Assembly (NCBI GenBank): GCA_965224565.1
Contig: CBDCZN010000002.1
Span: 2,230,417 to 2,294,416 of the forward strand
DNA from: Methylococcales bacterium
Lineage (GTDB): Bacteria > Pseudomonadota > Gammaproteobacteria > Methylococcales > DRLZ01
Direction of reading: 5' to 3'
Length of the DNA: 64,000 bases
The notes below the pieces were generated by a model, which searched no databases, was not told where the DNA came from, and saw only the letters and a list, made by a program, of their open reading frames with translations. The translations under genes were made by a program, and so were the position numbers. Shown here piece after piece: positions 9,785 to 24,287 of this stretch (position 1 is its first letter; each line of letters starts with the position of its first letter).

Positions 9785-12700
9785 CTATTTCTCCAGCTTC
9801 AAATTTTGACGTAAAATTTGTATCTCACCAGATAGCTCATTCACTTTGCGCACAATGGTCAAATCCAGATCAATTTTTTTGTCCATAGAACTCACAACCG
9901 GCATCAAGCTGGTTTCAACAATATTCGCTAATTGCTGGATTGCACCCTCGACAACTAATGAGGGTTTGTTAACAACACGAATACCGACTTCCTTCCCTTC
10001 AACTGCATCCTGAAGTGCTTGTAATTGCTTGCTGATGTTGAGCATTGGATGCATTAACTCTGTTTCACTATTGATGGCTTGATGAATAGATTCCAGGTGC
10101 TCTGTCACATAACTTAATTGCGAGGCTACTTTGGTGGCTGCATCTGCACCATCGCCGCCCATGCTTTGGCTGCGTTGAAAATCTTCTATAATGGCATCCC
10201 AGCGTTGTTGCTCTTCAGCTGTCATATTGCCGCGTAGTTGTGCGAGTTTAAGCAGATTATGCTCTGCGCCAGTGGTTAGCAGTTGTGCTTCTCCCTGGTA
10301 ATGATCGCTGATCATTTGCATCAGTTCATCATCATTCATCACTGCCGAGACTTTTTCGCAGAGTTTATTCATGTTGCGATAACTGCCTTGCAGTTTGAAG
10401 GCTGGCTCTGTGCGGTATTTGTCGTCTTGTGCTGCGGAACTGATGTAATTTTGATTAACACTTAATACCAGCTCTTGGATGGTAAATAGTTTGCGCAATA
10501 CTGCCATTATTTCGTTGAGTTCTGCGCCGCTGTATTGATGGTTTAAATCGGTGCTGGCGATGTTTGCGCCTTTTGCCATGTCGATGATTTTGTAGACATC
10601 ATCCATTTCACGAGTCGCTAGTGGTGCCAGTACCGGGTTGGAGGTGAGGCTGTTTTCAATATAACTCAGCGCAAACTGCTCATCCATTCCCCCGAGGATA
10701 TCGCCAAGATTATAGATATCTGCACGGTTTGCGAGCATATCCGGTATTTTGAACAGTTCGCCCGATTCGGTATAGGGGTTACCTGCCATCACTACGCAGA
10801 ATTTTTTACCGCGCATGTCGTAAGTCTTGGTATTGCCTTTCCAGACACCTTCGATACGCCGTGTTCCATCGCACAGTGAAATAAATTTTTGCAGAAATTC
10901 GGAATGAGTATGTTGAATATCATCCAGATACAACATGACGTTGTTGCCCATTTCCAGCGCCAGATTAAGCTTGTGTAATTCCTGTCTGGCGGTGGCGTTA
11001 GGTGCTGTGTCAGGATCCAGAGACAGCACATCATGACCCAATGATGGACAATTGATTTTCATGAAAATCAATCCCAGACGATTGGCGACATATTCCATTA
11101 ATGTGGTTTTACCGTAACCCGGTGGTGAAATCATCATCAACAAGCCCATCAGGTCGGAACGCTTATTGGCTCCGATGGTGCCCATTTGTTTTGCCAGGTT
11201 GTCACCTATAATCGGTAAATAGGCTTCATTGATCAGTCGATTGCGCACAAAGGAACTGAGCGGCTTGGCTTTGAATTCTTCCAGACGCAAAACTAATCGC
11301 TGCTGTTCCATGATTGTTTGACGAAGACTGTGATAATCATGATAGCCTTTAATCACCACTTGCTGATGATGTTGCAAGCGCTGCAAAAAGTCATCCACCG
11401 AAAAACCAAGACTGCGTTGCTGAATGACTGGATGATCACCCATCAGTTGATCAATGTTTAACTCAAGGTCTGTCTGCGAACTACGCCGGTCGATGCGTTG
11501 ATCGCCATTCAATAACGCCACGGCTTCCGCAATATAGCCTTGCAACTGAGTTAGTTGTTTATGTTCCACCAGTGCCTGCAACCAGGCATGGGTTAATTGC
11601 CAGCGTTGATCAATTCGATGACTGAGTTTTTCCAAAGCGGTCTGGTAATTACGCCAAGTCGATTCATCCAGGCTACGTTTCAGTTCATCTGCCAATTGTT
11701 GCGCGTACTTGCTACCAATAAATTGCAAGCGTTCCCGACTCAATTCAGCAACCAGATACTGCGCGGCTTGCTCAATTGCCAATGCTGTAAAATCGCCAGC
11801 AGCAATACCTTCTAAGCTTTGATTAAGCGGATAACGCTTTAGAAAGCTGTGTAAGGCTTGCTCAACCTCTTCTGCCAACAAGTGAGTGGCCTGGTGACTG
11901 GTTAAGCTGGACTGCATTTGCGCAGCGGATTGCGCACGTGTTTGCCAGGTAATATAACTGGCTTCCAGCTTGGGCATGGTTTCTTGATTCGCCCAGAAAA
12001 TTTGCGCCAGCGCACGACTGGCTGGAGAATATCGGAGTAGATCTGCGCTTTGTAATGCCGGTATCAGGCTTTTGAGTATCAGTGCGCAATCATGATCATG
12101 AATGCCTTTTTCATAACCTTCGCGGTAACGTGGTGCAGAAAAGTCACGAATCAGTGTTAGCAATGCCGCGTCATCATGTAAAGCAGCTTGCAAAGTGGTC
12201 AGATCGAGATTGTCCTGATTGGCTTCTGCAGCTTGCAAAATAAGATAAGCAAGGTATTCTGCGCGATAGACTTGTGGCGATTCAGATTCTAATGCCATCT
12301 CCCAATACTCGCGCAACGCAAGCAATTCTGGACTATCGAGTGGTTCAAAATAATCGGTTCCAGTGATGTGTAAAGTTAGCACCTCATTGCGTGGAATAAT
12401 GGTTAAATCCAGCTCCTGGGTATTGACGCTAAATTTATGGCGCGGCCCCAGCTTAATGACGTTGCCTCCGTCTTCATAAATATCGGTTTTATCGCGCAGT
12501 GAGCGTAACGCCTGCTCCTGTATCGCTTTGAAACGCCCTGCGATATCATCCGCTTTGACGGCATTATCCAGCCCACGTAATTTTTCGACGAGTTCGCGAA
12601 TTTTCAATACCAGGGCATCAGAAGCAAAATAAGTGTTGAGTTGATCGGCATCGCTAAATCGGTTACAACGCCGTTCGATATTCGTCAACATGCGTTGTGC

Positions 12701-15076
12701 TGCATCACTAATCGATTGTGCCTTGCGTTGTCTGGTATCGAGCAGCTGCTGTTTATGCGCTTCAAAGGATTCATAAATCTCCTCACGCTTACTCATAATG
12801 TCCGCTAAAAACTGGTCGTAATCACTAAACTGACTTTCCAGTTCTTCCAGCTGCACCAGCAAACGCGATAATTGCTCATCGCAACGCTCAGGACTATTCG
12901 CCATTTCCAGTGCGTTATTGATGCTTTGCGAGAACAGTTTAAACTGTGCAGCGAATTGTGCCAGCGCTTCTTCAGAACCGGTTTCTTTTTGCTTATGGCG
13001 TGCAGTGGCTTTGCTTTGATTGAGCTTGGAATAGACTTCTGAAATCGCATCAACAATGCGGGTACGCACAGTTGCATCGCTGATTTTCAACGTAGTCATC
13101 AACTCTGAAAGTAAATCCAGCCCTCTGGCAGTGGTGTCAATCTCCTCTATTACCGGAGTCAGCTCCGCAATGGTTTGCGCTTTTTCTATTTGCTGATTGA
13201 ACTTCTCAATTTTATCCAGATATGGAAGCAGGGCTTTTTCGTCAGCTAGAAAGATTCCGGTTTTTTCACCGAGTTGCTCACTGCTTTGTTCCAACACCTG
13301 ATCCATTTCGCTAATGCGATCCAAATTAATATAGCGATGCTCTTTAATGGTTGCCAAATGTCCACGTTGACGACGCAATTGATCCAGAGCATTCACATAT
13401 TGCTCGGCTGTTTCCCAACTGTCCGGCTGAATTGAATGCAGTAATTCGGACTGTGCTTGCTCAGCTTCGAGCATGGTTTTAGCGGATTGCTGACGAATGC
13501 TTTCCACTTTTTCAAATTCATCAATTACCAATTCAGAAGTATTGGTAATCTCTTTCAGCAACGTGCCAATGCCTTGCGTTTCTGAATCCTCAATCCAGTA
13601 ATGCGCATCAAACATTTTCGCCGCAGTCTTGCTTAGCTCTTCATACAAGCGAGCAGACACTGCTTGCTCATCAATCAACCGACACACACTGTACAAGTCA
13701 GAAATACCGCGCACCAGCTCAGCATTACCAATACGTCCAAAAAACGATTGATTGGCTGGTACACGGCTGGCAAATTCCTGACTGGTATAAGGTGTGCGCC
13801 AGATTTGCATGGGGTGAATACGAGTCGGTTCACCTTCGGCTGTAAAAATCACCACTGCGCCATCATCTGCCAAAGCGTGTCCATGGCCAACAATCGGGTT
13901 TTGCAGCAACTGTTCAATGACGTTATAGGAAAACAAAGCAACCACACCCAGTTCCGGCTGGTAAAACACATAGAGCACATCCTCACCATTCGGTGAATTG
14001 ATGCGGCGTCTGAATTTTAAGCCCTCAGTCCCGGTATCGTAAGTTTTGTTCTGCCCGTTTTGCAGATAATAACCACCGGGGAAAATAATGCCGTGGTCCT
14101 CTGGAAGTTGCACACAGGATTCACCAATCGCATCCATGCGCAACACACTTTCAGTTGCGGTATTAAAAATAAAATAACGCCAGTCCTGTTCACGATAAGG
14201 CAACATTTTCAATAGAATCAACTGGCCTACTTGCGCATACTCAATTTGAGCATCATCCAGCGACTGAGTCTGGTCTTCAACAGCTTCGCTATAAACTCCG
14301 CGACCATCATCAGTATTATTTTCCACCTTAATGGTTAAATCACCATTAATGGTTTCAACAAACAGCGTATCGAGAATATTGACATGTGGATGGCGACCAT
14401 TCACCGAGTCTTCACGACTGGTTTCCTGCCACTCAAAATCAAAAGCAGGTGGAAGCTGAATATCGCGCTCACCACGATTATCGATATAACTGACTTGCTT
14501 GCCATCGGCAGAAATCGCCCAGCGAAACACGCGGATATCTTCCACCCGCTCACCAATCTGAAAACCAGCCAGTAACTTGCCATTCTTGGCAGTCAGCTCG
14601 ACCAGTCTGGTTTGCTTGTAATAACGATACAGCTCAGCAAAATCATTACGAAATGATGTCTCGGCAAGAAAGCTGGTATCGAGCGTTTGCTGCACCATCT
14701 CATACTGAACATCATCATTGTCGGTATTGTTAACATCCGATGCCGAGGTGGTTGTTAGACGATACAGAGAAAACACATCCTCAATACGGGTTTCCTTCTT
14801 CAACCCGATATAAACGTTATAGCCAAACAACAACAAATCACCGACCTGAACAATATCTCGGGCCACGCAATTGTTTTCAGAACGCACCCGCACCCGAGCA
14901 GCCACAGCCATCTCGGAACTACCAAATTCCGCCAACCGCGCTTTATTTAAGGTTTTGGTTTGATTCTTAAGCTTTTGGCCTTGACCAACAAGGCGTTTAC
15001 GAATCACCTCGTAAGCACCACCTTCGGCTACGGCCTGGTCTACGATGTTGTTGGGTTCTGGTTGTTGATCGAGCAT
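9785..15076 (-). CDS. Giant (1763 aa) coiled-coil protein with a single AAA+ ATPase domain (Walker A SPPGYGKTTL, Walker B VMLYLDDIQH); function unknown
   Basis: Uninterrupted 5.3-kb ORF. Its N-terminal ~400 aa is also present as a truncated paralogous fragment at 19.6-21.9 kb. About 700 aa of predicted coiled coil lead into an AAA_5/MoxR-McrB-like P-loop core at aa ~1180-1350. Confidence 0.6.
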   Translation of the reverse strand: MLDQQPEPNNIVDQAVAEGGAYEVIRKRLVGQGQKLKNQTKTLNKARLAEFGSSEMAVAARVRVRSENNCVARDIVQVGDLLLFGYNVYIGLKKETRIEDVFSLYRLTTTSASDVNNTDNDDVQYEMVQQTLDTSFLAETSFRNDFAELYRYYKQTRLVELTAKNGKLLAGFQIGERVEDIRVFRWAISADGKQVSYIDNRGERDIQLPPAFDFEWQETSREDSVNGRHPHVNILDTLFVETINGDLTIKVENNTDDGRGVYSEAVEDQTQSLDDAQIEYAQVGQLILLKMLPYREQDWRYFIFNTATESVLRMDAIGESCVQLPEDHGIIFPGGYYLQNGQNKTYDTGTEGLKFRRRINSPNGEDVLYVFYQPELGVVALFSYNVIEQLLQNPIVGHGHALADDGAVVIFTAEGEPTRIHPMQIWRTPYTSQEFASRVPANQSFFGRIGNAELVRGISDLYSVCRLIDEQAVSARLYEELSKTAAKMFDAHYWIEDSETQGIGTLLKEITNTSELVIDEFEKVESIRQQSAKTMLEAEQAQSELLHSIQPDSWETAEQYVNALDQLRRQRGHLATIKEHRYINLDRISEMDQVLEQSSEQLGEKTGIFLADEKALLPYLDKIEKFNQQIEKAQTIAELTPVIEEIDTTARGLDLLSELMTTLKISDATVRTRIVDAISEVYSKLNQSKATARHKQKETGSEEALAQFAAQFKLFSQSINNALEMANSPERCDEQLSRLLVQLEELESQFSDYDQFLADIMSKREEIYESFEAHKQQLLDTRQRKAQSISDAAQRMLTNIERRCNRFSDADQLNTYFASDALVLKIRELVEKLRGLDNAVKADDIAGRFKAIQEQALRSLRDKTDIYEDGGNVIKLGPRHKFSVNTQELDLTIIPRNEVLTLHITGTDYFEPLDSPELLALREYWEMALESESPQVYRAEYLAYLILQAAEANQDNLDLTTLQAALHDDAALLTLIRDFSAPRYREGYEKGIHDHDCALILKSLIPALQSADLLRYSPASRALAQIFWANQETMPKLEASYITWQTRAQSAAQMQSSLTSHQATHLLAEEVEQALHSFLKRYPLNQSLEGIAAGDFTALAIEQAAQYLVAELSRERLQFIGSKYAQQLADELKRSLDESTWRNYQTALEKLSHRIDQRWQLTHAWLQALVEHKQLTQLQGYIAEAVALLNGDQRIDRRSSQTDLELNIDQLMGDHPVIQQRSLGFSVDDFLQRLQHHQQVVIKGYHDYHSLRQTIMEQQRLVLRLEEFKAKPLSSFVRNRLINEAYLPIIGDNLAKQMGTIGANKRSDLMGLLMMISPPGYGKTTLMEYVANRLGLIFMKINCPSLGHDVLSLDPDTAPNATARQELHKLNLALEMGNNVMLYLDDIQHTHSEFLQKFISLCDGTRRIEGVWKGNTKTYDMRGKKFCVVMAGNPYTESGELFKIPDMLANRADIYNLGDILGGMDEQFALSYIENSLTSNPVLAPLATREMDDVYKIIDMAKGANIASTDLNHQYSGAELNEIMAVLRKLFTIQELVLSVNQNYISSAAQDDKYRTEPAFKLQGSYRNMNKLCEKVSAVMNDDELMQMISDHYQGEAQLLTTGAEHNLLKLAQLRGNMTAEEQQRWDAIIEDFQRSQSMGGDGADAATKVASQLSYVTEHLESIHQAINSETELMHPMLNISKQLQALQDAVEGKEVGIRVVNKPSLVVEGAIQQLANIVETSLMPVVSSMDKKIDLDLTIVRKVNELSGEIQILRQNLKLEK

Positions 15077-15133
15077 GCCTGTTTCCTGGTGCGTTATGTT
15101 TTGTTTAATTGATAGAAATAATGATGAGTTTAT

Positions 15134-15163
15134 GTAGGTTGGGGTGAGTTTACGAACCCCAAC
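15134..15163. repeat. REP hairpin (3' side of RAYT1): gttgggg-N12-ccccaac
   Basis: A 7-bp stem with a 12-nt loop; the same element recurs at six further sites and always flanks RAYT genes. Confidence 0.75.
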
Positions 15164-15166
15164 AAA

Positions 15167-15703
15167 TCACGCCTTTTCTCCAAACATAAATTCATCAACG
15201 CCATCATTGGTATATCCCCAATCATCATTCAATATGCCTTTCGCTATGTACAGATGGATACTCGAATAAGACCAATCCATCGCACATTTTACGTAACCAT
15301 GTTTCACGGGATTGTAATGAATGTAATCAACATGTTTTTCATAATCATCTTCATCACGAATCAAATGCTCCCAATAACGTCTTTGCCAAATTCCTCGCTC
15401 ACCTTTTGATTGTCTGCTTTTGTCTATTCTCTCAAGCTTGGGCATTACACGAGAAAAACCGGTTTTAATTAGCATCCAACGTGTTGCAAAATCATTATCC
15501 TCAAGTGGCAATGTCCATAACGCATGCAAATGGTCGGGTAATACCACCATCGCATCGATTTTAAACGGATGCTGTTTCTTAACCTTATTCATAACGCTTC
15601 GCAAAATATCGATTTCATCAATCAATAATGAATTGTTGCGTTCCGCCAAATTCACCGTGAAAAAATATGTTCCGCCTTTTATGTCAGCTCTTCGATAACG
15701 CAT
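15167..15703 (-). CDS. REP-associated tyrosine transposase (RAYT, IS200/IS605-like TnpA_REP), copy 1
   Basis: 178 aa with the HxH motif (LPDHLHAL) and the catalytic Tyr region (YIHYNPVKHGYV); flanked on both sides by REP hairpins. Confidence 0.8.
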   Translation of the reverse strand: MRYRRADIKGGTYFFTVNLAERNNSLLIDEIDILRSVMNKVKKQHPFKIDAMVVLPDHLHALWTLPLEDNDFATRWMLIKTGFSRVMPKLERIDKSRQSKGERGIWQRRYWEHLIRDEDDYEKHVDYIHYNPVKHGYVKCAMDWSYSSIHLYIAKGILNDDWGYTNDGVDEFMFGEKA

Positions 15704-15752
15704 TTTATATTCCTAGCGTTTTTTTGATTTCTAGCTGTTTTTGTTGGGGTTC

Positions 15753-15782
15753 GTGCCTCACCCCAACCTACGCAGTCTAACA
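15753..15782. repeat. REP hairpin (5' side of RAYT1)
   Basis: gttggggttcgtgcctcaccccaacctacg. Confidence 0.75.
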
Positions 15783-15893: not shown

Positions 15894-16976
15894 TTATTCA
15901 TAAGGCTCATCATCATGGCCTGGTTTTTCCAAATCATCCAAAAAATCGGATGACATAATAATTTTTCTTTTTTTGCGGAGCTTAATGACATCAGGGTCAA
16001 AGTTTTTCAGAATATCCTGATAACTTTCATCCAAAAATGATTTGGCTTTATCAATTGCCACCTCAAGCTGTTTTTCTATGAAAGAATACTCAGCCATTAA
16101 TGGTTTACAATCAGCTGAAAAAGTTTGCCAGCGAATTTTCTTCAGGGTTGCTTCATTGGTAAAAATAAAACAACGATGCGGGTCATTATCCCAATCAAAA
16201 TCCTTTGTATAAGCAGCAGGTTCAAGCTTCGAATTCAGCTTGCTGATAACCAGCCAGCGTTTCTGTAAATATGGATACCAGCGATGTTGCAATTCCTTGA
16301 GTTGCTTTTCCAATCCACCGGCATCCTGTTGCATATCCCAGCGATAACCACCCTTGTCCCGCTTTCCATGTTCCTTGCCTTCAACAAATTTATGTGGAAT
16401 CAACTGATCAATATAATCTCTGCCAGTCGCTTCAATCTCATCATAAAGATGGGTTGCAACCGATGTGAATGTTGAATAGTAAAAGTTATCATCAATCAAT
16501 AAGCGTACCCACGGTGGCCAACGAAATGCATAGTATTCTGTACCCTTATAATCTTTAGAATCCTTCTTTCTTGCCTGCTCCTGAAACAGATAATCAGCAT
16601 GGTCATAATCGTAAAGTGTGCTGAAATCGAGCAAACTTTTATTATCTGCCATCGGCTCATTGAGACAAATCCAATCATCACCAATGCCCGCTGTTAGCAG
16701 TTTAGCCCAGTTAAGAACATTCAAATTATCAAGAGAAAGCTCTCTCCATACCTCATCAACGTCTTCAAGAGAACATTGAATATTCAGCAAATCATCCAGA
16801 AGCACACGCTTCACTTTTTGACAGGATTGTTCATTCATTGTTGCCCGAAAATGTTCTTGTTGTTTCGCTGACAACGAATAATACTGTGAGTCTGCTGCAA
16901 TTAAGGACTTACGGGCAGCGGCTTTTATTTGTGTTTTATCGAGTGAACTGAGCTTGTATTCGGTCGTATTACTCAT
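15894..16976 (-). CDS. Conserved hypothetical protein (360 aa from MSNTTEYKLSSL), partner of the giant ATPase gene
   Basis: The ORF track gives 401 aa, but the likely start is the ATG at 16976 (MSNTTEYK). A second copy, truncated after 8 codons (MINNTEYK) by a REP, lies at 23181-23206 next to the second Fic gene. Confidence 0.55.
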   Translation of the reverse strand: MSNTTEYKLSSLDKTQIKAAARKSLIAADSQYYSLSAKQQEHFRATMNEQSCQKVKRVLLDDLLNIQCSLEDVDEVWRELSLDNLNVLNWAKLLTAGIGDDWICLNEPMADNKSLLDFSTLYDYDHADYLFQEQARKKDSKDYKGTEYYAFRWPPWVRLLIDDNFYYSTFTSVATHLYDEIEATGRDYIDQLIPHKFVEGKEHGKRDKGGYRWDMQQDAGGLEKQLKELQHRWYPYLQKRWLVISKLNSKLEPAAYTKDFDWDNDPHRCFIFTNEATLKKIRWQTFSADCKPLMAEYSFIEKQLEVAIDKAKSFLDESYQDILKNFDPDVIKLRKKRKIIMSSDFLDDLEKPGHDDEPYE

Positions 16977-17264
16977 TTCAATGATCCTGTACCTGGTATG
17001 GAAAATACTTGGTTGTGTGTGTGTGATGAACCCTGAACTATACAATATCACTATCGCTACAAAACTGATCAATTCAACAAGAGAAAACATACGATACAAG
17101 CTTCAGAAATACCAACTTATCGAAATGATTCCTGAATGCCTGTATTTAAATTACGGTGGCGAATCGATCTAAGGTAATTCTATTTCTGTTACATTATAAA
17201 GGCTTTGCGACAACACCAGGTCTGCTGGTGTGTGATCATCATAGTTAGCGATCTGTTACAATTG

Positions 17265-17432
17265 CATACTCTCCGCACATGAAAATTTAGCATGTAGGGT
17301 GGGTGATTTTTTGTGGAGAGCAAGACGGAAAACCTTGGCTGTAGTTATTCTACAGCAAGGATTTCCAACGCAGCTATCCGAAAAAAAGTGCGCGCCCTAC
17401 ATGCTAAACTTTCATGTGCGGAGAGTATATTT
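17265..17432. mobile_element. MITE copy 3 (inverted orientation)
   Basis: Same TIRs; the core is the reverse complement relative to copies 1, 2 and 4. It overlaps the 5' extension of the Uma2 ORFs and shows that those extensions are spurious. Confidence 0.8.
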
Positions 17433-17453
17433 AGTCCTCTGGAACAAACTGAT

Positions 17454-18023
17454 ATGTCACAACCAGTCAAAAGCACAGCAAGCTATCATGATCTGTTCGA
17501 CCTCCCCGAGAACCTCGTCGGCGAGATTATTAATGGCGAGCTGCATACGCATCCGCGACCAGCGCCCAAACATGCCAGGGCCTATTCGGTTTTGGGTGGA
17601 AGTATTGGAAACCCGTACGATTGGGGTGGAAGCGGCCCGGGTGGCTGGTGGATTCTCGATGAACCAGAATTGCACCTTGACAACGACATCCTCGTGCCCG
17701 ATCTTGCCGGGTGGCGACGCGAGCGTATGCCAGCCCTACCCGAAACAGCCTGGTTCGAACTTGCCCCTGACTGGATTTGTGAAATTCTATCGCCTTCCAC
17801 CGCTCGCGTGGATCGCGTACTGAAAATGCCTATCTACGCTCGCGAAGGCGTACGACACCTGTGGCTAGTCGATCCAGACCTGCAAACCCTCGAGGTTTAT
17901 ATTCTCGACAACAGCCGCGACCAACCTCACTGGCTGCTACTCGATAGCCTTGAGGGTGATGCGCCTGTCAAACAGCCACCTTTCGATGCGATCGAGTTTT
18001 CATTAGGGGTGCTGTGGGGTTAA
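17454..18023 (+). CDS. Uma2 family (DUF820) putative restriction-endonuclease-like protein
   Basis: Starts MSQPVKSTASYHDLFDLPENLVGEIINGEL. Carries the characteristic motifs PDLAGW, PDWICEILSPSTARVDR and EGVRHLWLVDPD...LEVY. Confidence 0.8.
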   Translation: MSQPVKSTASYHDLFDLPENLVGEIINGELHTHPRPAPKHARAYSVLGGSIGNPYDWGGSGPGGWWILDEPELHLDNDILVPDLAGWRRERMPALPETAWFELAPDWICEILSPSTARVDRVLKMPIYAREGVRHLWLVDPDLQTLEVYILDNSRDQPHWLLLDSLEGDAPVKQPPFDAIEFSLGVLWG

Positions 18024-18106: not shown

Positions 18107-18237
18107 ACAAAGTCCTGTAAAGGGTGCGTTTTACCTACAAATAGCTCACCATGACAACAACACGGAGAGTAATCAATTAGTGTTTGTATTAATCACCGTA
18201 TACAACGTTGTTTGTGGTGCATAAAATGCACCCTACC
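18107..18237. repeat. Second palindromic intergenic repeat type (tagggtgcgttttac... / ...ggtgcataaaatgcaccctac)
   Basis: Imperfect inverted-repeat arms ~90 bp apart; a related element lies at 32948-33046 between the flotillin and nfeD-like genes. Confidence 0.5.
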
Positions 18238-18250
18238 TGGCTAATGTTAC

Positions 18251-18961
18251 TCAAGACTTCTTCCGAATGTATTTTTGTTTAGGGCTATTAGGACTGTTGG
18301 GGTGGCTCATGCTAATAACGCCTTGTTTTAAAGCGGGTAGAAGATAGTTTTTTCTAAACGTAGGTTTATGTGATAAACCCACTTTAGTCATAATTTGTGC
18401 GCTACTTAAATAGCCATCACCCATGACAGATAACAACTTTCCAACTGGGTCGCTTGCTAGGTCGGTGGCATTCATGCTCGCCAAAATAACCGATAACATA
18501 AATTCAATAAATACGGTGCTATCAGCGTTATTATCTGCAGATGACAATGCCTTATAATAATCCTGCTGATTATCTTTAATGGTATTTTCAATTGGTAAGG
18601 AATAGAAAACTTCTCGCCACTGCCCTAAAATCAAAGTCTGCCAGAGTCTACCCATTCTCCCATTGCCATCACTAAACGGATGAATAAATTCAAATTCATA
18701 GTGAAAAATACAACTGCGAATTACTGGATGGTCTTCTGTGTGTTGCAACCAGTGTAATAAATCCTTCATAAGCAGCGGAACTCTGCCTGCCTGCGGTGCA
18801 ATATGAACCACCTTATCGCCCTTATGAATGCCCACATCGCCGCTACGAAAACGGCCTGCGTCGAGTAAAATTTCTTCAGTCATTTGTTTATGCGCATCCA
18901 GTAAATCTTCTATACTGTGTGCGTGATATTGCGCCAAGGCCTCATCGGTTTCAGGATCAGC
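18251..18961 (-). pseudogene. Fic family protein, N-terminally truncated copy (junction with REP at 18962)
   Basis: Has the HPFSDGNGRMGR Fic motif but lacks the first ~90 aa present in the 327-aa paralogue at 23304-24287. The reading frame runs directly into the REP sequence. Confidence 0.7.
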
Positions 18962-18992
18962 GCGTAGGTTGGGGTGAGTTTACGAACCCCAA
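18962..18992. repeat. REP hairpin
   Basis: cgtaggttggggtgagtttacgaaccccaac. Confidence 0.75.
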
Positions 18993-18996
18993 CAAA

Positions 18997-19533
18997 TCAC
19001 GCCTTTTCTCCAAACTCGACACAATCTACCCCATCACTGTTATATCCCCAATCATCACTCAATATGCCTTTCGATATGTACATATGAATACTCGAATAAG
19101 CCCAATCTGTCGCAGATTTTACGTAACCATGTATCACGGGATTGTAATGAATATAATCAACATGTTTTTCATAATCATCTTCATCACGAATCAAATGTTC
19201 CCAATAACGTCTTTGCCAAATTCCTCGCTCACCTTTTGATTGTCTGCTTTTATTTATCCTATCAAGCTTGGGTATTGCACGAGAAAAACCGGTTTTAATC
19301 AGCATCCAACGTGTTGCAAAATCATTATCCTCAATTGGCAATGTCCATAACGCATGCAAATGGTCGGGTAATACCACCATGGCATCGAGTTTAAACGGAT
19401 GCTGTTTCTTGACCTTATTCATTACATTTCGCAGAATATCGATTTCATCAATCAACAATGAATTGTTGCGTTCTGCCAAATTCACCGTGAAAAAATATGT
19501 TCCGCCTTTTACATCAGCTCTTCGATAACGCAT
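18997..19533 (-). CDS. RAYT copy 2 (subtype B)
   Basis: 178 aa; ~85% identical to copy 1, but the C-terminal variant (SATDWAYSSIHMYISKGILSDDW) is shared with copy 4. Confidence 0.8.
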   Translation of the reverse strand: MRYRRADVKGGTYFFTVNLAERNNSLLIDEIDILRNVMNKVKKQHPFKLDAMVVLPDHLHALWTLPIEDNDFATRWMLIKTGFSRAIPKLDRINKSRQSKGERGIWQRRYWEHLIRDEDDYEKHVDYIHYNPVIHGYVKSATDWAYSSIHMYISKGILSDDWGYNSDGVDCVEFGEKA

Positions 19534-19575
19534 TATTTATATTCACGGCGTTTCTTTAGTTTCTAGCCGTTTTTT

Positions 19576-19605
19576 GTTGGGGTTCGTGCCTCACCCCAAC
19601 CTACG
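19576..19605. repeat. REP hairpin
   Basis: gttggggttcgtgcctcaccccaacctacg. Confidence 0.75.
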
Positions 19606-20442
19606 CGGGCTCAATGACGTTATAGGAAAACAAAGCAACCACACCCAATTCCGGCTGGAAAAACACATAGAGCACGTCCTCACCATTCGGTGAATTGATG
19701 CGCCGTCTGAATTTTAAGCCCTCTGTCTCGGTATCATAAGTTTTGTACTGGCCGTTTTGCAGATAATAACCACCGGGGGAAATAATGCCGTGGTCTTCCG
19801 GAAGTTGCACACAGGATTCACCAATCGCATCCATGTGCAACACACTTTCAGTCGCGATATTAAAAATAAAATAACGCCAGTCCTGTTCACGATAAGGCAA
19901 CATTTTCAATAGAATCAACTGGCCTACTTGCGCATACTCAATTTGAGCATCATCCAGCGACTGAGTCTGGTCTTCAACAGCTTCGCTATAAACTCCGTGA
20001 CCATCATCAGTGTTATTTTCCACCTTAATGGTTAAATCACCATTAATCGTTTCAACAAACACCGTGTCCAGAATATTGACATGAGGATGACGACCATTCA
20101 CCGAATCTTCACGGCTGGTTTCCTGCCACTCAAAATCAAAAGCAGGTGGAAGCTGAATATCGCGCTCACCACGATTATCGATATAACTGACTTGCTTGCC
20201 ATCGGCAGAAATCGCCCAGCGAAACACGCGGATATCTTCCACCCGCTCACCAATCTGAAAACCAGCCAGTAACTTGCCATTCTTGGCAGTCAGCTCGACC
20301 AGTCTGGTTTGCTTGTAATAACGATACAGCTCAGCAAAATCATTACGAAATGATGTCTCGGCAAGAAAGCTGGTATCGAGCGTTTGCTGCACCATCTCAT
20401 ACTGAACATCATCATTGTCGGTATTGTTAACAGGTGAATTCA

Positions 20443-21536
20443 GTTTCAAAGTGCACCACCTAACATAGAGATTAGGACACCAAAGGCAGTTCTGTTATTT
20501 TGAGGTTTACGACAACTTCAAAAACAGGAGCTCCTGATGTCCTATACCCATCTTAACGCGCGAGACCGCATGTGTCTTTTTTATAATCATCAAGCTGGTG
20601 TGCCGCTTCGGGAGATTGGCAGAAAATTGAACCGATCACACACCACGCTTTCACGTGAACTCAGGCGCAATAAACGATTATTTAATTGTTATTGGGATGA
20701 AGCAGCGCAACAATTTGCAGACGCTAGAAAAGCAAAACCCCGCCATACAAAACGAGCGTCCAATGAGAAGCTCAAACAATATGTTTTGGGTAAGCTCAAA
20801 ATTGGCTGGTCACCGGAAATTATCAGTAATCGATTAAAACGCGACTATCCACACAGCAAAAAGACCATGAGGCTGAGTCCGGAGGCAATTTATCAGTGGA
20901 TATTCAACGATGCTGAACAACAAGGCACGCTCTACACGTATTTGGTTCGCAGCCACAAGAAGCGGCGGAAACAAAGACGATACGGCTCATTGAGGGGGAA
21001 CATACCAGGTCGTGTTGATATCGATGAGCGCCCATGTGCGGTTGAAAAAAGGCTGCGCTATGGCGATTGGGAAGGTGACACCATGGTTGGCCATAGGCAT
21101 CAGGGCAGATTCGTTACGCATATTGAACGTAAGTCCCGATTTCTACTGTGCGGCAAAGCACAAGATGGTACAGCCAGTAATTTTAACCAAGTAAGTTTAA
21201 AGCTATTCAAATGCATTCCTCAAAGGTATCGCAAAACGATGACGTTAGATAATGGCAGTGAAAATAGCTTGTTCAGAGAGTTACAAGAAAAGCTCAAATT
21301 CAAGGTCTATTTTGCCAAGCCTTATGCAAGCTGGGAACGCGGTAGCAATGAAAACACCAATGGTTTAATTCGGCGATATTTTCCCAAAGGAACCAACTTC
21401 TTGAAGGTGACAGAATTTGAGCTTGAAAAAGCAGTCAATTTGCTTAATCATAGGCCTAGAAAATGCCTCAAATACAGAACACCTTTCGAGGTCTTTGATT
21501 CGATATCAGGTGGTGCTCTTGCAACTTGAATTCACC
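20443..21536 (+). mobile_element. IS30 family insertion sequence (1094 bp), IRs ggtgaattcag.../...ctgaattcacc, 3-bp TSD aca
   Basis: IRL 20443-20467 and IRR 21512-21536. The flanking aca is duplicated, and the uninterrupted paralogue has gttaacatccgatgc at the same site (14735-14749). Confidence 0.85.
20537..21529 (+). CDS. IS30 family transposase (330 aa)
   Basis: N-terminal HTH (GVPLREIGRKLNRSHTTLSRELRRN) and a DDE core; the ORF runs into the IRR, as is typical of IS30. Confidence 0.85.
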   Translation: MSYTHLNARDRMCLFYNHQAGVPLREIGRKLNRSHTTLSRELRRNKRLFNCYWDEAAQQFADARKAKPRHTKRASNEKLKQYVLGKLKIGWSPEIISNRLKRDYPHSKKTMRLSPEAIYQWIFNDAEQQGTLYTYLVRSHKKRRKQRRYGSLRGNIPGRVDIDERPCAVEKRLRYGDWEGDTMVGHRHQGRFVTHIERKSRFLLCGKAQDGTASNFNQVSLKLFKCIPQRYRKTMTLDNGSENSLFRELQEKLKFKVYFAKPYASWERGSNENTNGLIRRYFPKGTNFLKVTEFELEKAVNLLNHRPRKCLKYRTPFEVFDSISGGALAT

Positions 21537-21937
21537 ACATCAGATGCAGAGGTGGTTGTCAGACGATACAGAGAAAACACATCCTCAATACGGGTTTCCT
21601 TCTTCAATCCGATATAAACGTTATAACCAAACAACAACAAATCGCCGACTTGGACAATATCCCGCGCCACACAATTGTTTTCAGTCCGCACCCGCACCCG
21701 CGCAGCCACAGCCATCTCGGAACTACCAAATTCCGCTAAGCGTGCTTCATTTAAGGACTTGGTATGATTTTTGAGCTTTTGGCCTTGGTCAACAAGGCGT
21801 TTACGAATCACCTCGTAAGCACCGCCTTCGGCTACGGCCTGGCCTACGATGGTATTGGATTCTGGTTGTTGATCAGGCATACCTGTTTCCTGGTGCGTTA
21901 TGTTTTGTTTAATTAATAGAAATAATGATGAGTTTAT

Positions 21938-21967
21938 GTAGGTTGGGGTGAGTTTACGAACCCCAAC
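21938..21967. repeat. REP hairpin
   Basis: gtaggttggggtgagtttacgaaccccaac. Confidence 0.75.
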
Positions 21968-21970
21968 AAA

Positions 21971-22507
21971 TCACGCCTTTTCTCCAAACATAAATTCATC
22001 AACGCTATCATTGGTATATCCCCAATCATCATTCAATATGCCTTTCGCTATGTACAGATGGATACTCGAATAAGTCCAATCCATCGGAGATGTTACGTAA
22101 CCATGTTTCACGGGATTGTGATGAATGTAATCAACATGTTTTTCATAATCATCTTCATCACGAATCAAATGCTCCCAATAACGCCTTTGCCAAATTCTTC
22201 GCTCACCTTTTGATTGTCTGCTTTTATTTATTCTCTCAAGCTTGGGTATTGCACGAGAAAAACCGGTTTTAATTAGCATCCAACGTGTTGCAAAATCATT
22301 ATCCTCAATTGGCAATGTCCATAACGCATGCAAATGGTCGGGTAATACCACCATGGCATCGAGTTTAAACGGATGCTGTTTCTTGACCTTATTCATTACA
22401 TTTCGCAGAATATCGATTTCATCAATCAACAATGAATTGTTGCGTTCTGCCAAATTCAACGTGAAAAAATATGTTCCGCCTTTTACATCAGCTCTTCGAT
22501 AACGCAT
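21971..22507 (-). CDS. RAYT copy 3 (subtype A)
   Basis: 178 aa; nearly identical to copy 1. Confidence 0.8.
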   Translation of the reverse strand: MRYRRADVKGGTYFFTLNLAERNNSLLIDEIDILRNVMNKVKKQHPFKLDAMVVLPDHLHALWTLPIEDNDFATRWMLIKTGFSRAIPKLERINKSRQSKGERRIWQRRYWEHLIRDEDDYEKHVDYIHHNPVKHGYVTSPMDWTYSSIHLYIAKGILNDDWGYTNDSVDEFMFGEKA

Positions 22508-22548
22508 TCATTATATTCCTGGCGTTTCTTTAGTTTCTAGCTGTTTTT

Positions 22549-22578
22549 GTTGGGGTTCGTTCTTCACTCCAACCTACG
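22549..22578. repeat. REP hairpin (degenerate: gttggggttcgttcttcactccaac)
   Basis: Point substitutions in the loop and 3' stem. Confidence 0.6.
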
Positions 22579-22583
22579 CGGGC

Positions 22584-23092
22584 TACTCCATCACTGTTAT
22601 ATCCCCAATCATCACTCAATATGCCTTTCGATATGTACATATGAATACTCGAATAAGCCCAATCTGTCGCAGATTTTACGTAACCATGTTTCACGGGATT
22701 GTAATGAATATAATCAACATGTTTTTCATAATCATTTTCATCACGAATCAAATGTTCCCAATAACGCCTTTGCCAAATTCCTCGCTCACCTTTTGATTGT
22801 CTGCTTTTATTTATTCTCTCAAGCTTGGGTATTGCACGAGAAAAACCGGTTTTAATTAGCATCCAACGTGTTGCAAAATCATTATCCTCAATTGGCAATG
22901 TCCATAACGCATGCAAATGGTCGGGTAATACCACCATCGCATCGAGTTTAAACGGATGCTGTTTTTTTGACCTTATTAATAACACTTCGCAAAATATCGA
23001 TTTCATCAATCAATAATGAATTATTGCGTTCTGCCAAATTCACCGTGAAAAAATATGTTCCGCCTTTTACATCAGCTCTTCGATAACGCATT
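22584..23092 (-). pseudogene. RAYT copy 4 (subtype B): frameshifted 5' part, lacks 3' REP and last ~8 codons
   Basis: ORF 22530..23009 matches RAYT2 at aa 20-170. Upstream RAYT-homologous sequence continues to 23092 in other frames, and the C-terminus reads through into REP f. Confidence 0.7.
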
Positions 23093-23132
23093 ATTTATGT
23101 TCCTGGCGTTTCTTTAATTTCTAGCTGTTTTT

Positions 23133-23162
23133 GTTGGGGTTCGTGCCTCACCCCAACCTACG
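23133..23162. repeat. REP hairpin
   Basis: gttggggttcgtgcctcaccccaacctacg; immediately followed by the 8-codon remnant of the 360-aa hypothetical gene. Confidence 0.75.
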
Positions 23163-23303
23163 CGGGCTTGTATTCGGTATTGTTAATCATTTCAACCGTC
23201 CTGAGTTGGCTGCATTCAACTGTATTTATGTAACGAATGCGTAGCCTTTATAAAAATGAGATCCTTTGCTTGGCAAGAAATTACCCTCACAGGCTAATGT
23301 TGC

Positions 23304-24287
23304 TCATTGCTGTTTCCGGATGTATTTTTGTTTAGGACTATTAGGGCTATTGGGATTGCTCATGCTAATAACGCCTTGTTTTAAAGCAGGTAGAAGATAG
23401 TTTTTTCTAAACGTAGGTTTGTGTGATAAACCCACTTTAGCCATAATTTGAGCGCTGCTTAAATAGCCATCACCCATTACCGATAACAACTTTTCAACTG
23501 GGTCGCTTACTGGGTCGCTTACTGGGTCGCTTACTGGGTCGGTAGCATTAATGCTCGCCAAAATAACCGACAGCATAAATTCAATAAACACGGTGCTATC
23601 AGCGTTATTATCTGCAGATGACAATGCATTATAATAATCCTGCTGGTTACTTTTAATTGTATTTTCAATTGGTAAGGAATAGAAAGCTTCTCGCCACTGC
23701 CCTAAGATCAAAGTCTGCCAGAGTCTACCCATTCTCCCATTGCCATCACTAAACGGATGAATAAATTCAAATTCATAGTGAAAAATACAACTGCGAATTA
23801 ACGGATGGTCTTCTGTGTGTTGCAACCAGTGTAATAAATCCTTCATAAGCAGCGGAACTCTGCCTGCCTGCGGGGCAATATGAACCACCTTATCGCCCTT
23901 ATGAATGCCCACATCGCCGCTACGAAAACGGCCTGCGTCGAGTAAAATTTCTTCAGTCATGCGTTTATGCGCATCCAGCAAACCATCCAAACTGTGTGCC
24001 TGATATTGTGCCAAGGCTTCATACGCCTTAATAGCCCCTCGTACCTCAGCAATTTCTCTTTGCGAACCCCTGACTGGCTTACCGTCGACAATAGCAGACA
24101 CCTGCTCCAAGCCTAAAGTATTCCCCTCAATTGCCAACGTACCCGTGATGGTTTTTATCCTGTTTTGTTTGCGAAGCTGTGGTGAGTTTTGAATTTCAAT
24201 GATAGCCGCACCCGCTACAGCCTCACTGATCTGTACAACCAGTGAAAGAATTTTCGGGGTTATTGTGTAGGGTGGCTGGTAGATCAT
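23304..24287 (-). CDS. fic: Fic family protein (327 aa), full-length copy with an in-frame (VSDP)n repeat
   Basis: Fic motif HPFSDGNGRMGR. The C-terminal ~70 aa looks like a winged-helix domain. A 12-bp unit tgggtcgcttac is repeated ~3.6 times at 23499-23541. Confidence 0.8.
   Translation of the reverse strand: MIYQPPYTITPKILSLVVQISEAVAGAAIIEIQNSPQLRKQNRIKTITGTLAIEGNTLGLEQVSAIVDGKPVRGSQREIAEVRGAIKAYEALAQYQAHSLDGLLDAHKRMTEEILLDAGRFRSGDVGIHKGDKVVHIAPQAGRVPLLMKDLLHWLQHTEDHPLIRSCIFHYEFEFIHPFSDGNGRMGRLWQTLILGQWREAFYSLPIENTIKSNQQDYYNALSSADNNADSTVFIEFMLSVILASINATDPVSDPVSDPVSDPVEKLLSVMGDGYLSSAQIMAKVGLSHKPTFRKNYLLPALKQGVISMSNPNSPNSPKQKYIRKQQ

What the first reader, a model, noticed from the sequence alone, without database searches (positions are those of the whole stretch)
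9785..24287. Tandem segmental duplication of a Fic / 360-aa protein / giant AAA+ ATPase module, with REP-RAYT units at every breakpoint
On the minus strand the order 'Fic -> 360-aa hypothetical -> [REP-RAYT-REP] -> giant gene' occurs twice in the same orientation. The first copy has an intact giant gene (9785-15076) and an intact 360-aa gene, but its Fic gene is truncated at 18961 where it runs into a REP. The second copy has a full-length Fic gene (23304-24287). Its 360-aa gene is reduced to 8 codons at 23181-23206. Its giant gene is reduced to aa 1-395, split by IS30 and capped by another REP at 19605. Sixty bp of upstream sequence (15077-15135 = 21881-21940) are identical in both copies. 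The 18961-19610 segment (truncated Fic | REP | RAYT2 | REP | truncated giant gene) therefore looks like the novel junction of an ~9-kb tandem duplication whose second copy is now decaying. This suggests REP/RAYT hairpins act as recombination or breakpoint hotspots.
Basis: seen in the sequence. Interest (0 to 1): 0.72.

Follow-up and report, generated by a model that had tools for sequence, protein, structure and literature searches.

The report
Diverged direct repeat joined by REP-RAYT units
A methane-oxidiser relative carries two head-to-tail, 7-10 % diverged copies of a 5-kb gene segment, cut and joined exactly at the ends of small REP-RAYT transposase units. The copies still swap short stretches of sequence, so this is a well-documented but essentially ordinary case of genome remodelling by mobile elements.

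Summary
The repeat is real. Self-BLAST shows the order Fic / 360-aa gene / REP-RAYT-REP / start of a 1763-aa DUF3686-AAA+ gene twice in direct orientation. Independent short-read assemblies of the same Methylococcales species reproduce both copies and the joint at equal coverage, so it is not a misassembly.

Several details need correcting:
- There are four RAYT units.
- The period is 5.0-5.7 kb, not 9 kb.
- The giant fragment ends in codon 388.
- The 360-aa remnant lies at 23167-23190.
- The 60-bp spacers differ at 2 sites.
- Copy A carries an extra Uma2 gene.

The reading "fresh tandem duplication whose second copy is decaying" is only partly supported. The copies differ by 7-10 %, almost only at synonymous sites (dN/dS 0.08 and 0.18). 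Derived amino-acid changes are equal in the intact and the truncated giant copy (9 v 9). The fragments have no stops or frameshifts. The fragments were therefore parts of working genes for nearly all of their divergence, and were truncated or brought together recently.

Strains differ by short gene-conversion patches between the copies. Every rearrangement joint sits at the exact terminus of a RAYT unit (left end GCCCGC-GTAG-hairpin). The three genes are not a conserved module. I rate this a new member of a known kind, of modest interest.

The parts
9785..15076 (-). Giant gene, copy A. Intact, 1763 aa, with DUF3686 + DUF7902 + AAA+ domains.
   Evidence: ORF; Pfam hits. No PADLOC, NCBIfam or PDB match. 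The identical 1763-aa gene is present in L005.
14418..14735 (-). Gene-conversion tract inside giant copy A. A 318-bp run identical to copy B, ending at the point where IS30 interrupts copy B.
   Evidence: L002 differs from the window at 24 sites, all within 14522-14733. At all 24 the window's copy A equals copy B. L005 shares the converted state. Run length.
15134..15779 (-). RAYT unit U1 (REP - RAYT ORF 15167-15703 - inverted REP). It is followed by a 57-bp spacer leading to giant copy A.
   Evidence: NF047646, 200 bits. E. coli TnpA-REP 4ER8, E = 6e-46, with HUH motif and catalytic Tyr aligned. REP positions.
15894..16979 (-). 360-aa gene, copy A. Intact; no known domain.
   Evidence: ORF and start codon. 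100 % identical to P0001, with 233 homologues. No Pfam or PDB hit.
17266..18023 (+). Insert specific to copy A: a 165-bp palindromic repeat (17266-17429) followed by a Uma2-family endonuclease gene.
   Evidence: Pfam PF05685, E = 2e-20. Repeat family found by self-BLAST. Absent from copy B.
18251..18945 (-). Fic copy A'. It lacks codons 1-88, including the N-terminal TxxxEG inhibitory-helix motif. The reading frame is otherwise intact.
   Evidence: Pfam Fic + Fic-like_C. Alignment to Fic copy B.
18957..19611 (-). RAYT unit U2, the joint between the two copies (RAYT ORF 18997-19533). Its left terminus GCCCGC-GTAG abuts giant copy B at codon 388. Its right REP plus about 15-20 nt abuts Fic copy A at codon 89.
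   Evidence: Alignments. The identical joint is present in the independent contig L005.
19611..20432 (-). Giant copy B', codons 115-388.
   Evidence: 97.0 % identical to 13914-14735. DUF3686, E = 6e-126.
20433..21536 (+). IS30-family insertion sequence (transposase 20537-21529), with 3-bp target duplication ACA.
   Evidence: NF033563, 272 bits. Inverted repeats and target duplication.
21537..21937 (-). Giant copy B', codons 1-115, plus its 57-bp upstream spacer.
   Evidence: Alignment to 14733-15133 with 34 differences.
21938..22584 (-). RAYT unit U3 (ORF 21971-22507). Occupies the same position as U1. Its 5' part resembles U2 and its 3' part resembles U1.
   Evidence: Site patterns.
22583..23168 (-). 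RAYT unit U4. It lacks the last ~60 nt and the right REP, and is joined directly to the left terminus of U3. It is frameshifted in the window but not in L131.
23167..23190 (-). Remnant of 360-aa gene copy B: 8 codons (MINNTEYK), followed directly by the left terminus of U4.
   Evidence: The nucleotide match is weak but positionally consistent.
23304..24287 (-). Fic copy B. Full length, 327 aa, with HPFxxGNGR motif and TLAIEGN motif.
   Evidence: Pfam. PADLOC SoFic, E = 1.6e-38. The NCBIfam SoFic equivalog cut-off is not reached.

Best explanation
WHAT IT IS
The locus is a genuine head-to-tail repeat of a roughly 5-kb chromosomal segment. The segment holds the 3' two-thirds of a Fic gene, a 360-aa gene, one REP-RAYT-REP unit, and the first 388 codons of a giant DUF3686/AAA+ gene. 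The host is a Methylococcales bacterium rich in insertion sequences.

HOW THE COPIES RELATE
The two copies are diverged homologues, not a fresh duplicate and its decaying twin. Both evolved as parts of intact, selected genes. They were brought together or truncated only recently.

Three origins fit this, and I cannot tell them apart:
1. Additive integration of a divergent allele from a related strain.
2. An in-situ duplication followed by import of a divergent allele into one copy.
3. Two once-complete paralogous modules fused by a deletion.

WHAT HAS HAPPENED SINCE
- The copies exchange short gene-conversion tracts in both directions. This includes tracts copied from the dead fragment into the live giant gene.
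- An IS30 element inserted into giant copy B.
- RAYT units did the cutting. Unit copies sit in the 360-aa gene of copy B (codon 8) and at the giant/Fic joint. DNA to the left of three units is missing right up to the exact unit terminus.

INFERRED MECHANISM
The REP-RAYT unit behaves like an IS200/IS605-type element here. Its HUH-tyrosine transposase cuts at the REP and joins the unit's left end to new sites. That produces insertions and adjacent deletions. Ordinary homologous recombination among the four 650-bp units and the paralogous gene segments accounts for the rest.

SHOWN VERSUS INFERRED
Shown: the structure, its reality, the pattern of divergence, the conversion patches, and the exact termini. 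Inferred: transposase involvement and the route by which the copies came together.
For: STRUCTURE AND REALITY

DIVERGENCE UNDER PURIFYING SELECTION
- Giant gene: dS 0.296, dN 0.025, omega 0.083. Differences by codon position are 8/7/51.
- Fic: omega 0.18.
- P = 6e-11 and 3e-4 against pseudogene-since-duplication; derived amino-acid changes 9 v 9.
- Fragment reading frames are intact.

A DIVERGENT FUNCTIONAL ALLELE EXISTS BEYOND CODON 388
The window and L005 differ in the single-copy part of the giant gene by 16 nt in 3 patches. 14 of 15 affected codons are synonymous.

GENE CONVERSION
- 24 of 24 sites in giant copy A.
- 11 of 12 sites in U1 and 3 of 3 in Fic copy A of L005.
- 8 of 8 in giant copy B and 6 of 8 in Fic copy B of L131.
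- One patch edge lies 14 nt from the next diagnostic site, so it cannot be a k-mer graph artefact.
- Flanks are identical between strains: 0 differences in 3462 and 3111 bp.

EXACT TERMINI
- U2, U3 and U4 all start at GCCCGC-GTAG, next to three unrelated sequences: giant codon 388, U4 position ~605, and 360-aa gene codon 8.
- A 94.7 % identical unit in a ~93 % related genome (L132) has the same terminus in a fourth context.

RAYT CREDENTIALS
- NF047646.
- Match to 4ER8 with HUH and Tyr conserved.
- GTAG plus an 8-bp hairpin.
- GTAG and the REP hairpin are the determinants of TnpA-REP cleavage (PMC8266576).
Against: - No transposition event is observed directly.
- The four left flanks share only a terminal A (TTGA, ACAA, AGTA, CAAA). 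That is a weak target signature.
- RAYTs of this E. coli-like type are generally regarded as domesticated and single-copy (PMC5581495).
- U3's mosaic structure and the U4|U3 joint need extra steps in any model.
- The strains compared are metagenome assemblies. Contig L130 may be chimeric, which shows that some assembly noise exists at this locus.
- The route that juxtaposed the copies cannot be resolved. The nearest relatives outside the species are only about 80 % identical in protein.
Confidence: 0.6

Rival explanations
1. A single in-situ tandem duplication of one genome's own DNA, with U2 marking the original joint. Copy B has been decaying ever since. REP hairpins acted as the recombination hotspot.
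For: - The topology is exactly that of a tandem duplication with one joint.
- Copy B has lost its 360-aa gene and acquired an IS30.
- REP sequences at duplication join-points are a classical observation (Shyamala et al. 1990, cited in PMC7661048).
Against: - omega is 0.08 and 0.18 instead of about 0.55.
- Derived changes are 9 v 9.
- There are no frameshifts or stops in the fragments.
- The Fic-360 intergenic region cannot be aligned, and the Uma2 gene is present in one copy only.
- Conversion between copies is fast relative to strain divergence, so 7-10 % divergence should not build up in place.
- The intact genes have no REP at codon 388 of the giant gene or codon 89 of Fic that could have recombined.
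Confidence: 0.2
2. Passive fragility. REP hairpins stall replication or are nicked by host nucleases. The joints would then arise from illegitimate recombination or template switching at hairpins, with no role for the RAYT enzyme and no mobility of the unit.
For: - Stable 8-bp hairpins exist at both ends of each unit.
- There is a 12-of-13-nt microhomology (GGGGTTCGYAAA) between the right REP and Fic copy B, about 45 bp from the breakpoint.
- RAYTs are usually immobile.
Against: - Three joints fall at the same nucleotide, 6 nt upstream of GTAG and outside the hairpin. Breakage at a stalled hairpin should scatter.
- The same terminus bounds the unit in a different context in a relative.
- Whole units, not hairpins alone, are found at the new sites.
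Confidence: 0.15
3. Assembly artefact: repeats that were mis-joined or collapsed and then expanded in the long contig.
For: - The region is full of repeats.
- Contig L130 from another metagenome threads A-type and B-type sequence in a way that could be chimeric.
Against: - Two contigs of an independent short-read assembly, at equal coverage (73.6 and 68.6), reproduce copy B, the joint and copy A base for base apart from short patches.
- The copies are 7-10 % diverged, so reads map unambiguously over most of their length.
- Short-read contigs break exactly at the runs where copies A and B are identical. That is what is expected if both copies exist.
Confidence: 0.03

Closest known systems
REP-associated tyrosine transposase units (REPtrons; E. 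coli TnpA-REP/RayT, PDB 4ER8; group 2 RAYTs)
   Same: A 178-aa HUH-Y1 protein with E = 6e-46 to 4ER8 and 200 bits to NF047646. It is flanked by inverted REPs, each consisting of GTAG plus a hairpin (PMC8266576).
   Different: - There are four copies, 92-96 % identical, within 8 kb.
- No free-standing REPs occur in the 64-kb window.
- Unit termini abut truncated coding sequences, which looks like insertion-sequence behaviour rather than a domesticated single-copy gene (PMC5581495).
Tandem chromosomal duplications with REP sequences at the join-point (Salmonella; Shyamala, Schneider and Ames 1990, EMBO J 9:939. Known to me by title and from memory; cited in PMC7661048)
   Same: A direct repeat of a chromosomal segment whose joint contains REP sequence.
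   Different: - Here the joint is a complete REP-RAYT-REP unit lying inside two coding sequences that carry no REP in their intact copies.
- The copies are 7-10 % diverged with a purifying-selection signature.
IS200/IS605-family single-strand transposons (IS608, ISDra2)
   Same: A Y1 HUH transposase, subterminal hairpins, no target-site duplication, and a precisely defined left end joined to varied flanks.
   Different: No conserved target tetranucleotide could be shown; only a shared terminal A in 4 flanks. Mobility of a RAYT gene unit has not been demonstrated.
Concerted evolution by gene conversion between a gene and its pseudogene fragment
   Same: Short tracts of 60-320 bp are copied between paralogous segments, including from the truncated giant fragment into the intact gene. 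Tract ends fall where homology ends (at IS30).
   Different: There is no evidence that the exchange is programmed or selected. Tracts run in both directions and also affect the RAYT units and Fic.

Membership tests
REP/RAYT system (REPtron) | HUH-Y1 transposase of the RAYT clade | tested here: met
   NF047646 scores 200.5 bits against a cut-off of 80. 4ER8 matches at E = 6e-46, with LPDHLHALW and YIHYNPVKHG aligned to the E. coli HUH and Tyr motifs.
REP/RAYT system (REPtron) | Gene flanked by inverted REPs, each with GTAG 5' of a hairpin | tested here: met
   GTAG-GTTGGGGT-loop-ACCCCAAC is present on both sides of U1-U3 and on the left of U4.
REP/RAYT system (REPtron) | Many dispersed REP/REPIN copies in the same genome | tested here: inconclusive
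   The 64-kb window holds 7 REPs, all flanking RAYT genes. The rest of the genome was not available. The same 29-mer occurs free-standing and as inverted doublets in more than 120 metagenome contigs.
REP/RAYT system (REPtron) | One copy per genome (domesticated behaviour) | tested here: not met
   Four copies, 92-96 % identical, within 8 kb. For comparison, 7.7 % of RAYTs have a near-identical duplicate (PMC5581495).
Recent in-situ tandem duplication | Same gene order and orientation, with one novel joint | tested here: met
Recent in-situ tandem duplication | Copies near-identical, or truncated parts evolving neutrally since the event | tested here: not met
   Divergence is 7-10 %. omega is 0.083 and 0.18. 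Derived changes are 9 v 9. No stops or frameshifts.
IS30 family insertion | IS30 transposase, terminal inverted repeats, 2-3-bp target duplication | tested here: met
   NF033563 scores 272 bits. Inverted repeats begin GGTGAATTCA. The target duplication is ACA, and the giant copy B sequence is contiguous across the insertion.
IS200/IS605-type mobile element (for the RAYT unit) | Insertion 3' of a conserved target tetra- or pentanucleotide, without target duplication | tested here: inconclusive
   The four left flanks are TTGA, ACAA, AGTA and CAAA. No duplication is present.
IS200/IS605-type mobile element (for the RAYT unit) | The same element with the same ends in different genomic contexts | tested here: met
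   U2, U3, U4 and the L132 unit share the terminus GCCCGC-GTAG next to four unrelated sequences.
Conserved Fic / 360-aa / giant ATPase operon (functional module) | Genes co-occur in other genomes | tested here: not met
   360-aa homologues (38-68 % identical) in L001, L004 and L006-L009 have no Fic, DUF3686 or RAYT on the DNA held around them (9-10 kb on each side; L001 ends about 0.5 kb downstream of the gene).
SoFic-type defence Fic | Reaches the curated equivalog score | tested here: not met
   PADLOC SoFic matches at E = 1.6e-38. NCBIfam NF046030 scores 58 bits against a cut-off of 550. It is a Fic-family protein, not shown to be SoFic.

The most novel reading that the evidence does not exclude
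The REP-RAYT units of this lineage may still be autonomously mobile. Their transposase would join the unit's left end (GCCCGC-GTAG-hairpin) to new sites. That would produce insertions into genes and left-end-adjacent deletions.

If so, this locus preserves natural footprints of RAYT-catalysed genome rearrangement. That activity has been shown only in vitro for a family otherwise regarded as domesticated.

A side-effect is that a dead gene fragment serves as a donor of sequence variation for the live giant ATPase gene.
Probability: 0.2. Interest if true: 0.6.

Novelty: new member of a known kind. Interest (0 to 1): 0.33.

Why it matters
The locus is a clean, multi-strain natural example of how a bacterial chromosome segment is remodelled. 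Diverged homologous copies are juxtaposed, cut exactly at REP-RAYT unit ends, hit by an insertion sequence, and then slowly homogenised by short gene-conversion tracts.

It has two points of wider use:
1. It shows that "tandem duplicate plus decay" cannot be read from gene order alone. The substitution pattern here says the truncated pieces were working genes until recently.
2. RAYT genes are thought to be immobile, yet here four copies sit with identical termini against unrelated sequences. If that reflects RAYT activity in vivo, these joints give concrete substrates for testing it.

Otherwise the components (Fic, IS30, RAYT, a giant ATPase of unknown role) and the processes are familiar.

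Tried and rejected
- E. coli genome search with the whole region: no match.
- PADLOC, NCBIfam and PDB searches for the giant gene and the 360-aa protein: nothing beyond the Pfam DUF domains.
- Literature search for DUF3686: no papers.
- Rfam scan of the window: no family.
- Exact look-ups of the 361-aa form of the 360-aa protein, Fic copy B and the U3 RAYT: not on record.
- Genome-collection scan with the 360-aa protein: only one distant locus.
- Considered and rejected: that the patch of 24 differences between L002 and the window is a polishing or graph artefact. L005 shares the converted state, and another patch has an edge only 14 nt from a diagnostic site.
- Considered: that GCCCGC upstream of GTAG is simply part of a universal REP consensus. 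In 141 free REPs from metagenomes those positions are only weakly conserved, so the shared terminus is specific to this lineage's units.
- Considered: that the microhomology GGGGTTCGYAAA in Fic copy B marks the true U2 joint. Rejected because the complete right REP follows it.
- I could not reconstruct a unique order of events for the U4/U3 pair.
- I could not decide whether contig L130 is a real recombinant haplotype or a chimera.
Full report
SOURCE AND SETTING

The 360-aa protein is 100 % identical to a protein of a Methylococcales metagenome-assembled genome that lies on a 3.3-Mb contig. The window is rich in insertion sequences. It holds:
- one IS30 and one IS1;
- two IS4-like transposase genes;
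- a pair of IS110 copies;
- a pair of IS1595 copies.

There is no match in E. coli genomes.

CHECKING THE OBSERVATION

Self-BLAST of the window finds three direct paralogous matches:
- 14733-15779 with 21537-22585, at 93.3 %;
- 13914-14735 with 19611-20432, at 97.0 %;
- 18230-18945 with 23283-24022, at 90.0 %.

It also finds a 650-bp unit present four times: U1 15134-15779, U2 18957-19611, U3 21938-22584 and U4 22583-23168.

The protein identities are as follows:
- The giant gene carries DUF3686, DUF7902 and AAA domains.
- Both Fic copies carry Fic and Fic-like_C.
- The 178-aa ORFs in U1-U3 are REP-associated tyrosine transposases. They score 200 bits against NF047646 and E = 6e-46 against E. 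coli TnpA-REP 4ER8, with the HUH and Tyr motifs aligned.
- The + strand ORF at 20537-21529 is an IS30 transposase.

Each RAYT gene is flanked by inverted REPs of the form GTAG + GTTGGGGT-loop-ACCCCAAC. These 7 REPs are the only ones in the 64 kb.

The IS30 element (20433-21536) has terminal inverted repeats and a 3-bp target duplication. Giant copy B is contiguous across it.

Read on the minus strand, the order is:

Fic-B (full length) - 8 codons of 360-B - U4 (3'-truncated) - U3 - giant-B codons 1-115 - IS30 - giant-B codons 115-388 - U2 - Fic-A' (from codon 89) - Uma2 (opposite strand) plus a 165-bp palindromic repeat - 360-A - U1 - giant-A (intact).

Six details need correcting:
1. There are four RAYT units, not three.
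2. The period is 5.0-5.7 kb, not 9 kb.
3. Giant copy B ends in codon 388, not 395.
4. The 360-aa remnant lies at 23190-23167, on a weak 30-bp, 87 % match.
5. The 60-bp spacers differ at two sites.
6. Copy A has about 1.27 kb, including the Uma2 gene, that copy B lacks.

IS IT REAL?

Yes. One SPAdes assembly (ERZ25083849) yields two contigs at equal coverage:
- L131, coverage 73.6: 689-aa gene - IS1 - Fic-B - U4 - U3 - giant-B 5' piece, ending at the IS30 edge.
- L005, coverage 68.6: giant-B 3' piece | U2 | Fic-A' - Uma2 - 360-A - U1 - giant-A - Sel1.

Both match the window base for base apart from short patches.

L002, from a third assembly, equals window 18852-14174 except for 24 clustered sites. 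Short-read contigs end exactly inside the runs where copies A and B are identical, of 140 and 318 bp. That is expected if both copies exist in those genomes.

HOW THE TWO COPIES ARE RELATED

The differences between the copies fall almost entirely at third codon positions.
- For giant codons 1-301, I used the unconverted copy A sequence from L002. This gives dS = 0.296, dN = 0.025 and omega = 0.083, with differences by codon position of 8/7/51.
- For Fic, dS = 0.215 and omega = 0.18.

Suppose the truncated pieces had been pseudogenes ever since a duplication created the joint. The pairwise omega should then be near 0.55. The binomial P for the observed counts is 6e-11 for the giant gene and 3e-4 for Fic.

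Three outgroup proteins (67-81 % identical) polarise the amino-acid changes. They assign 9 changes to the intact copy A, 9 to the truncated copy B, and leave 5 ambiguous. Neither fragment contains a stop or frameshift. Fic differs by one in-frame 24-bp repeat indel.

The fragments therefore spent nearly all of their divergence time as parts of intact, constrained genes. The truncations are recent.

Non-coding sequence tells the same story of separate histories. Beyond 21 bp downstream of the Fic stop codon, the Fic-360 intergenic regions cannot be aligned until about 15 bp before the start of the 360-aa gene.

ONGOING EXCHANGE BETWEEN THE COPIES

The available strains are identical over kilobases of unique flank: 0 differences in 3462 bp and 0 in 3111 bp. 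Yet they differ by patches in which one copy carries the other copy's bases:
- Giant copy A, 14522-14733. The window and L005 are B-type at 24 of 24 sites. L002 keeps the native A state. The tract ends exactly where IS30 interrupts copy B.
- U1 in L005 is U3-type at 11 of 12 sites. Fic-A in L005 is B-type at 3 of 3 sites.
- Giant copy B in L131 is A-type at 8 of 8 sites. Fic-B in L131 is A-type at 6 of 8 sites. U3 and U4 also differ by patches that match their paralogues.

One patch edge lies only 14 nt from the next diagnostic site. A de Bruijn-graph mis-threading cannot produce that.

Conversion is thus fast relative to point mutation. That makes it unlikely that 7-10 % divergence accumulated while the copies sat side by side.

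The single-copy part of the giant gene also differs between the window and L005. There are 16 nt of difference in three tight patches, and 14 of 15 affected codons are synonymous. A divergent, functional, full-length allele therefore exists in the gene pool.

Together this points to two diverged working alleles being juxtaposed recently. Three routes fit:
1. Additive integration of DNA from a related strain.
2. An in-situ duplication followed by import of a divergent allele into one copy.
3. Two once-complete paralogous modules fused by a deletion.

I cannot choose between these. The nearest sequences outside the species are only about 80 % identical in protein.

Contig L130 threads Fic (B 5' / A 3') - Uma2 - 360-A - U1 - giant (A 5' / B 3') - U2. 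Its switches fall inside runs where A and B are identical. It is either a real recombinant haplotype or a chimeric contig.

THE RAYT UNITS AT THE JOINTS

U2, U3 and U4 begin at the same nucleotide, GCCCGC-GTAG-hairpin. To their left lie three unrelated sequences:
- giant-B codon 388, where the intact copy reads CATTGA|ACAG;
- position ~605 of U4;
- codon 8 of 360-B.

A unit 94.7 % identical to U2 occurs in a genome about 93 % related to this one (L132). It has the same left terminus in a fourth context: DUF7380 gene | unit | 165-bp repeat | Phd-PIN.

In 141 free REPs of the same type from metagenomes, the six bases before GTAG are only weakly conserved. The shared terminus is therefore a property of this lineage's units.

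The four left flanks share only a final A. No target duplication is present. U2's right REP is followed by about 15-20 nt that loosely resemble the right flank in L132, and then by Fic-A codon 89.

Site patterns among the four units show reticulation:
- In the 5' 400 nt, the tree is (U1,(U4,(U2,U3))).
- In the 3' 250 nt, the grouping is (U1,U3) versus (U2,U4).

The nearest pairs differ by 2-4 %, less than the surrounding genes do. The units have therefore either spread or been homogenised more recently than the A/B split.

The simplest reading has four parts:
1. The unit between the 360-aa gene and the giant gene (U1 and U3) is part of the repeated segment.
2. U2 and U4 are additional copies.
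3. The DNA to the left of U2 and U3 was deleted up to the unit terminus.
4. This is IS-like insertion plus adjacent deletion, by an HUH-Y1 enzyme that is known to cut next to GTAG-hairpin REPs in vitro (PMC8266576).

This is inference; no transposition is observed. It also runs against the general picture of RAYTs as single-copy, domesticated genes. Even so, 7.7 % of RAYTs do have a near-identical duplicate on the same replicon (PMC5581495).

IS FIC / 360-AA / GIANT A MODULE?

No. Homologues of the 360-aa protein at 38-68 % identity occur in six loci from other genomes. They are solo genes in unrelated neighbourhoods. None has a Fic, DUF3686 or RAYT gene on the DNA held around it, 9-10 kb on each side except in L001, which ends about 0.5 kb downstream of the gene.

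The giant protein has no PADLOC, NCBIfam or PDB relative. No paper in the library mentions DUF3686.

Fic-B resembles SoFic in PADLOC (E = 1.6e-38). It is far below NCBI's equivalog cut-off.

COMPARISON WITH WHAT IS KNOWN

REP sequences at tandem-duplication join-points were described in Salmonella in 1990 (Shyamala et al., cited in PMC7661048). I know that paper's content by its title and from memory. IS insertions, adjacent deletions, and gene conversion between paralogues are textbook processes.

Two features are less usual here:
- A whole RAYT unit, rather than a bare REP, sits at the joint.
- Four RAYT copies share one exact terminus.

VERDICT

This is a new example of known kinds of event, and useful mainly as a well-resolved natural case.

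The most novel reading still open is that these RAYT units are mobile in vivo and made the deletions. I put that at about 0.2.

Noticed in passing
window 5145-5310, 8267-8431, 17266-17429, 41353-41517, 42627-42793; also L132 3242-3405: A 165-bp repeat family, 77-98 % identical between copies. Each copy is partly self-complementary (about 72 %).
- Two copies flank, as inverted repeats, a two-gene cassette: an unknown 149-aa ORF plus a low-molecular-weight phosphotyrosine phosphatase (41545-42503).
- One copy sits just upstream of the Uma2 gene.
- In the relative L132, one copy precedes a Phd-PIN toxin-antitoxin pair.
There is no Rfam match. It could be a MITE or a shared regulatory palindrome.
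   Followed up: partly
window 18251-18945 v 23304-24287: The truncated Fic-A' lacks the N-terminal 88 residues. In Fic-B these include TLAIEGN, which fits the (S/T)xxxE(G/N) inhibitory-helix motif of class II Fic proteins (my own knowledge: Engel et al. 2012). Fic-A' keeps the HPFSDGNGR active site and an open frame. If expressed, it could be a de-inhibited AMP-transferase.
   Followed up: no
window 18465 / 23520-23545 (Fic): An in-frame 24-bp indel. Fic-B carries a DPVS tetrapeptide repeat (DPVSDPVSDPVSDPVE) where Fic-A' has DLASDPVG.
   Followed up: no
window 13781-13784, 12782-12884, 11396-11483 (single-copy part of the giant gene) v L005: Three tight patches of almost purely synonymous differences between strains (16 nt; 14 of 15 codons synonymous). 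This implies import from a divergent full-length allele, or from a second paralogue elsewhere.
   Followed up: partly
L130 (GCA_044240345.1, 8634 bp): A contig that reads flank - IS1 - Fic(B5'/A3') - Uma2 - 360 - U1 - giant(A5'/B3', 390 aa) - U2. It is either a real recombinant haplotype with a restored 360-aa gene in the upstream copy, or a chimeric assembly that switches in runs where A and B are identical.
   Followed up: partly
metagenome loci L010-L129: The exact 29-30-nt REP (GTAGGTTGGGGTGAG-N3-4-CGAACCCCAAC) occurs in more than 120 contigs from many environments. It is often found as inverted doublets 50-200 bp apart. The RAYT proteins on those contigs are mostly 58-68 % identical to this one (range 40-79 % over all matches, some partial). 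The DNA site is far better conserved than its enzyme.
   Followed up: partly
window 53328-54737 / 58360-59769 and 38757-39797 / 61587-62627: A 99.9 % identical inverted pair of IS110-family elements brackets about 3.6 kb. A 99.4 % identical direct pair of IS1595-family elements lies 22 kb apart. Both are potential substrates for inversion and for deletion or duplication.
   Followed up: no
window 42841-43337 v 43672-44168: An internal 498-bp repeat, 76 % identical, inside the 1107-aa Kelch / galactose-oxidase-like / PKD protein gene (42832-46155).
   Followed up: no
window 22968 (U4): The window's U4 has an extra A in an A-run, giving a frameshift. L131 lacks it and has a 186-aa open frame. 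This is either a real difference within a 9-site patch or a homopolymer error of the long-read assembly.
   Followed up: partly
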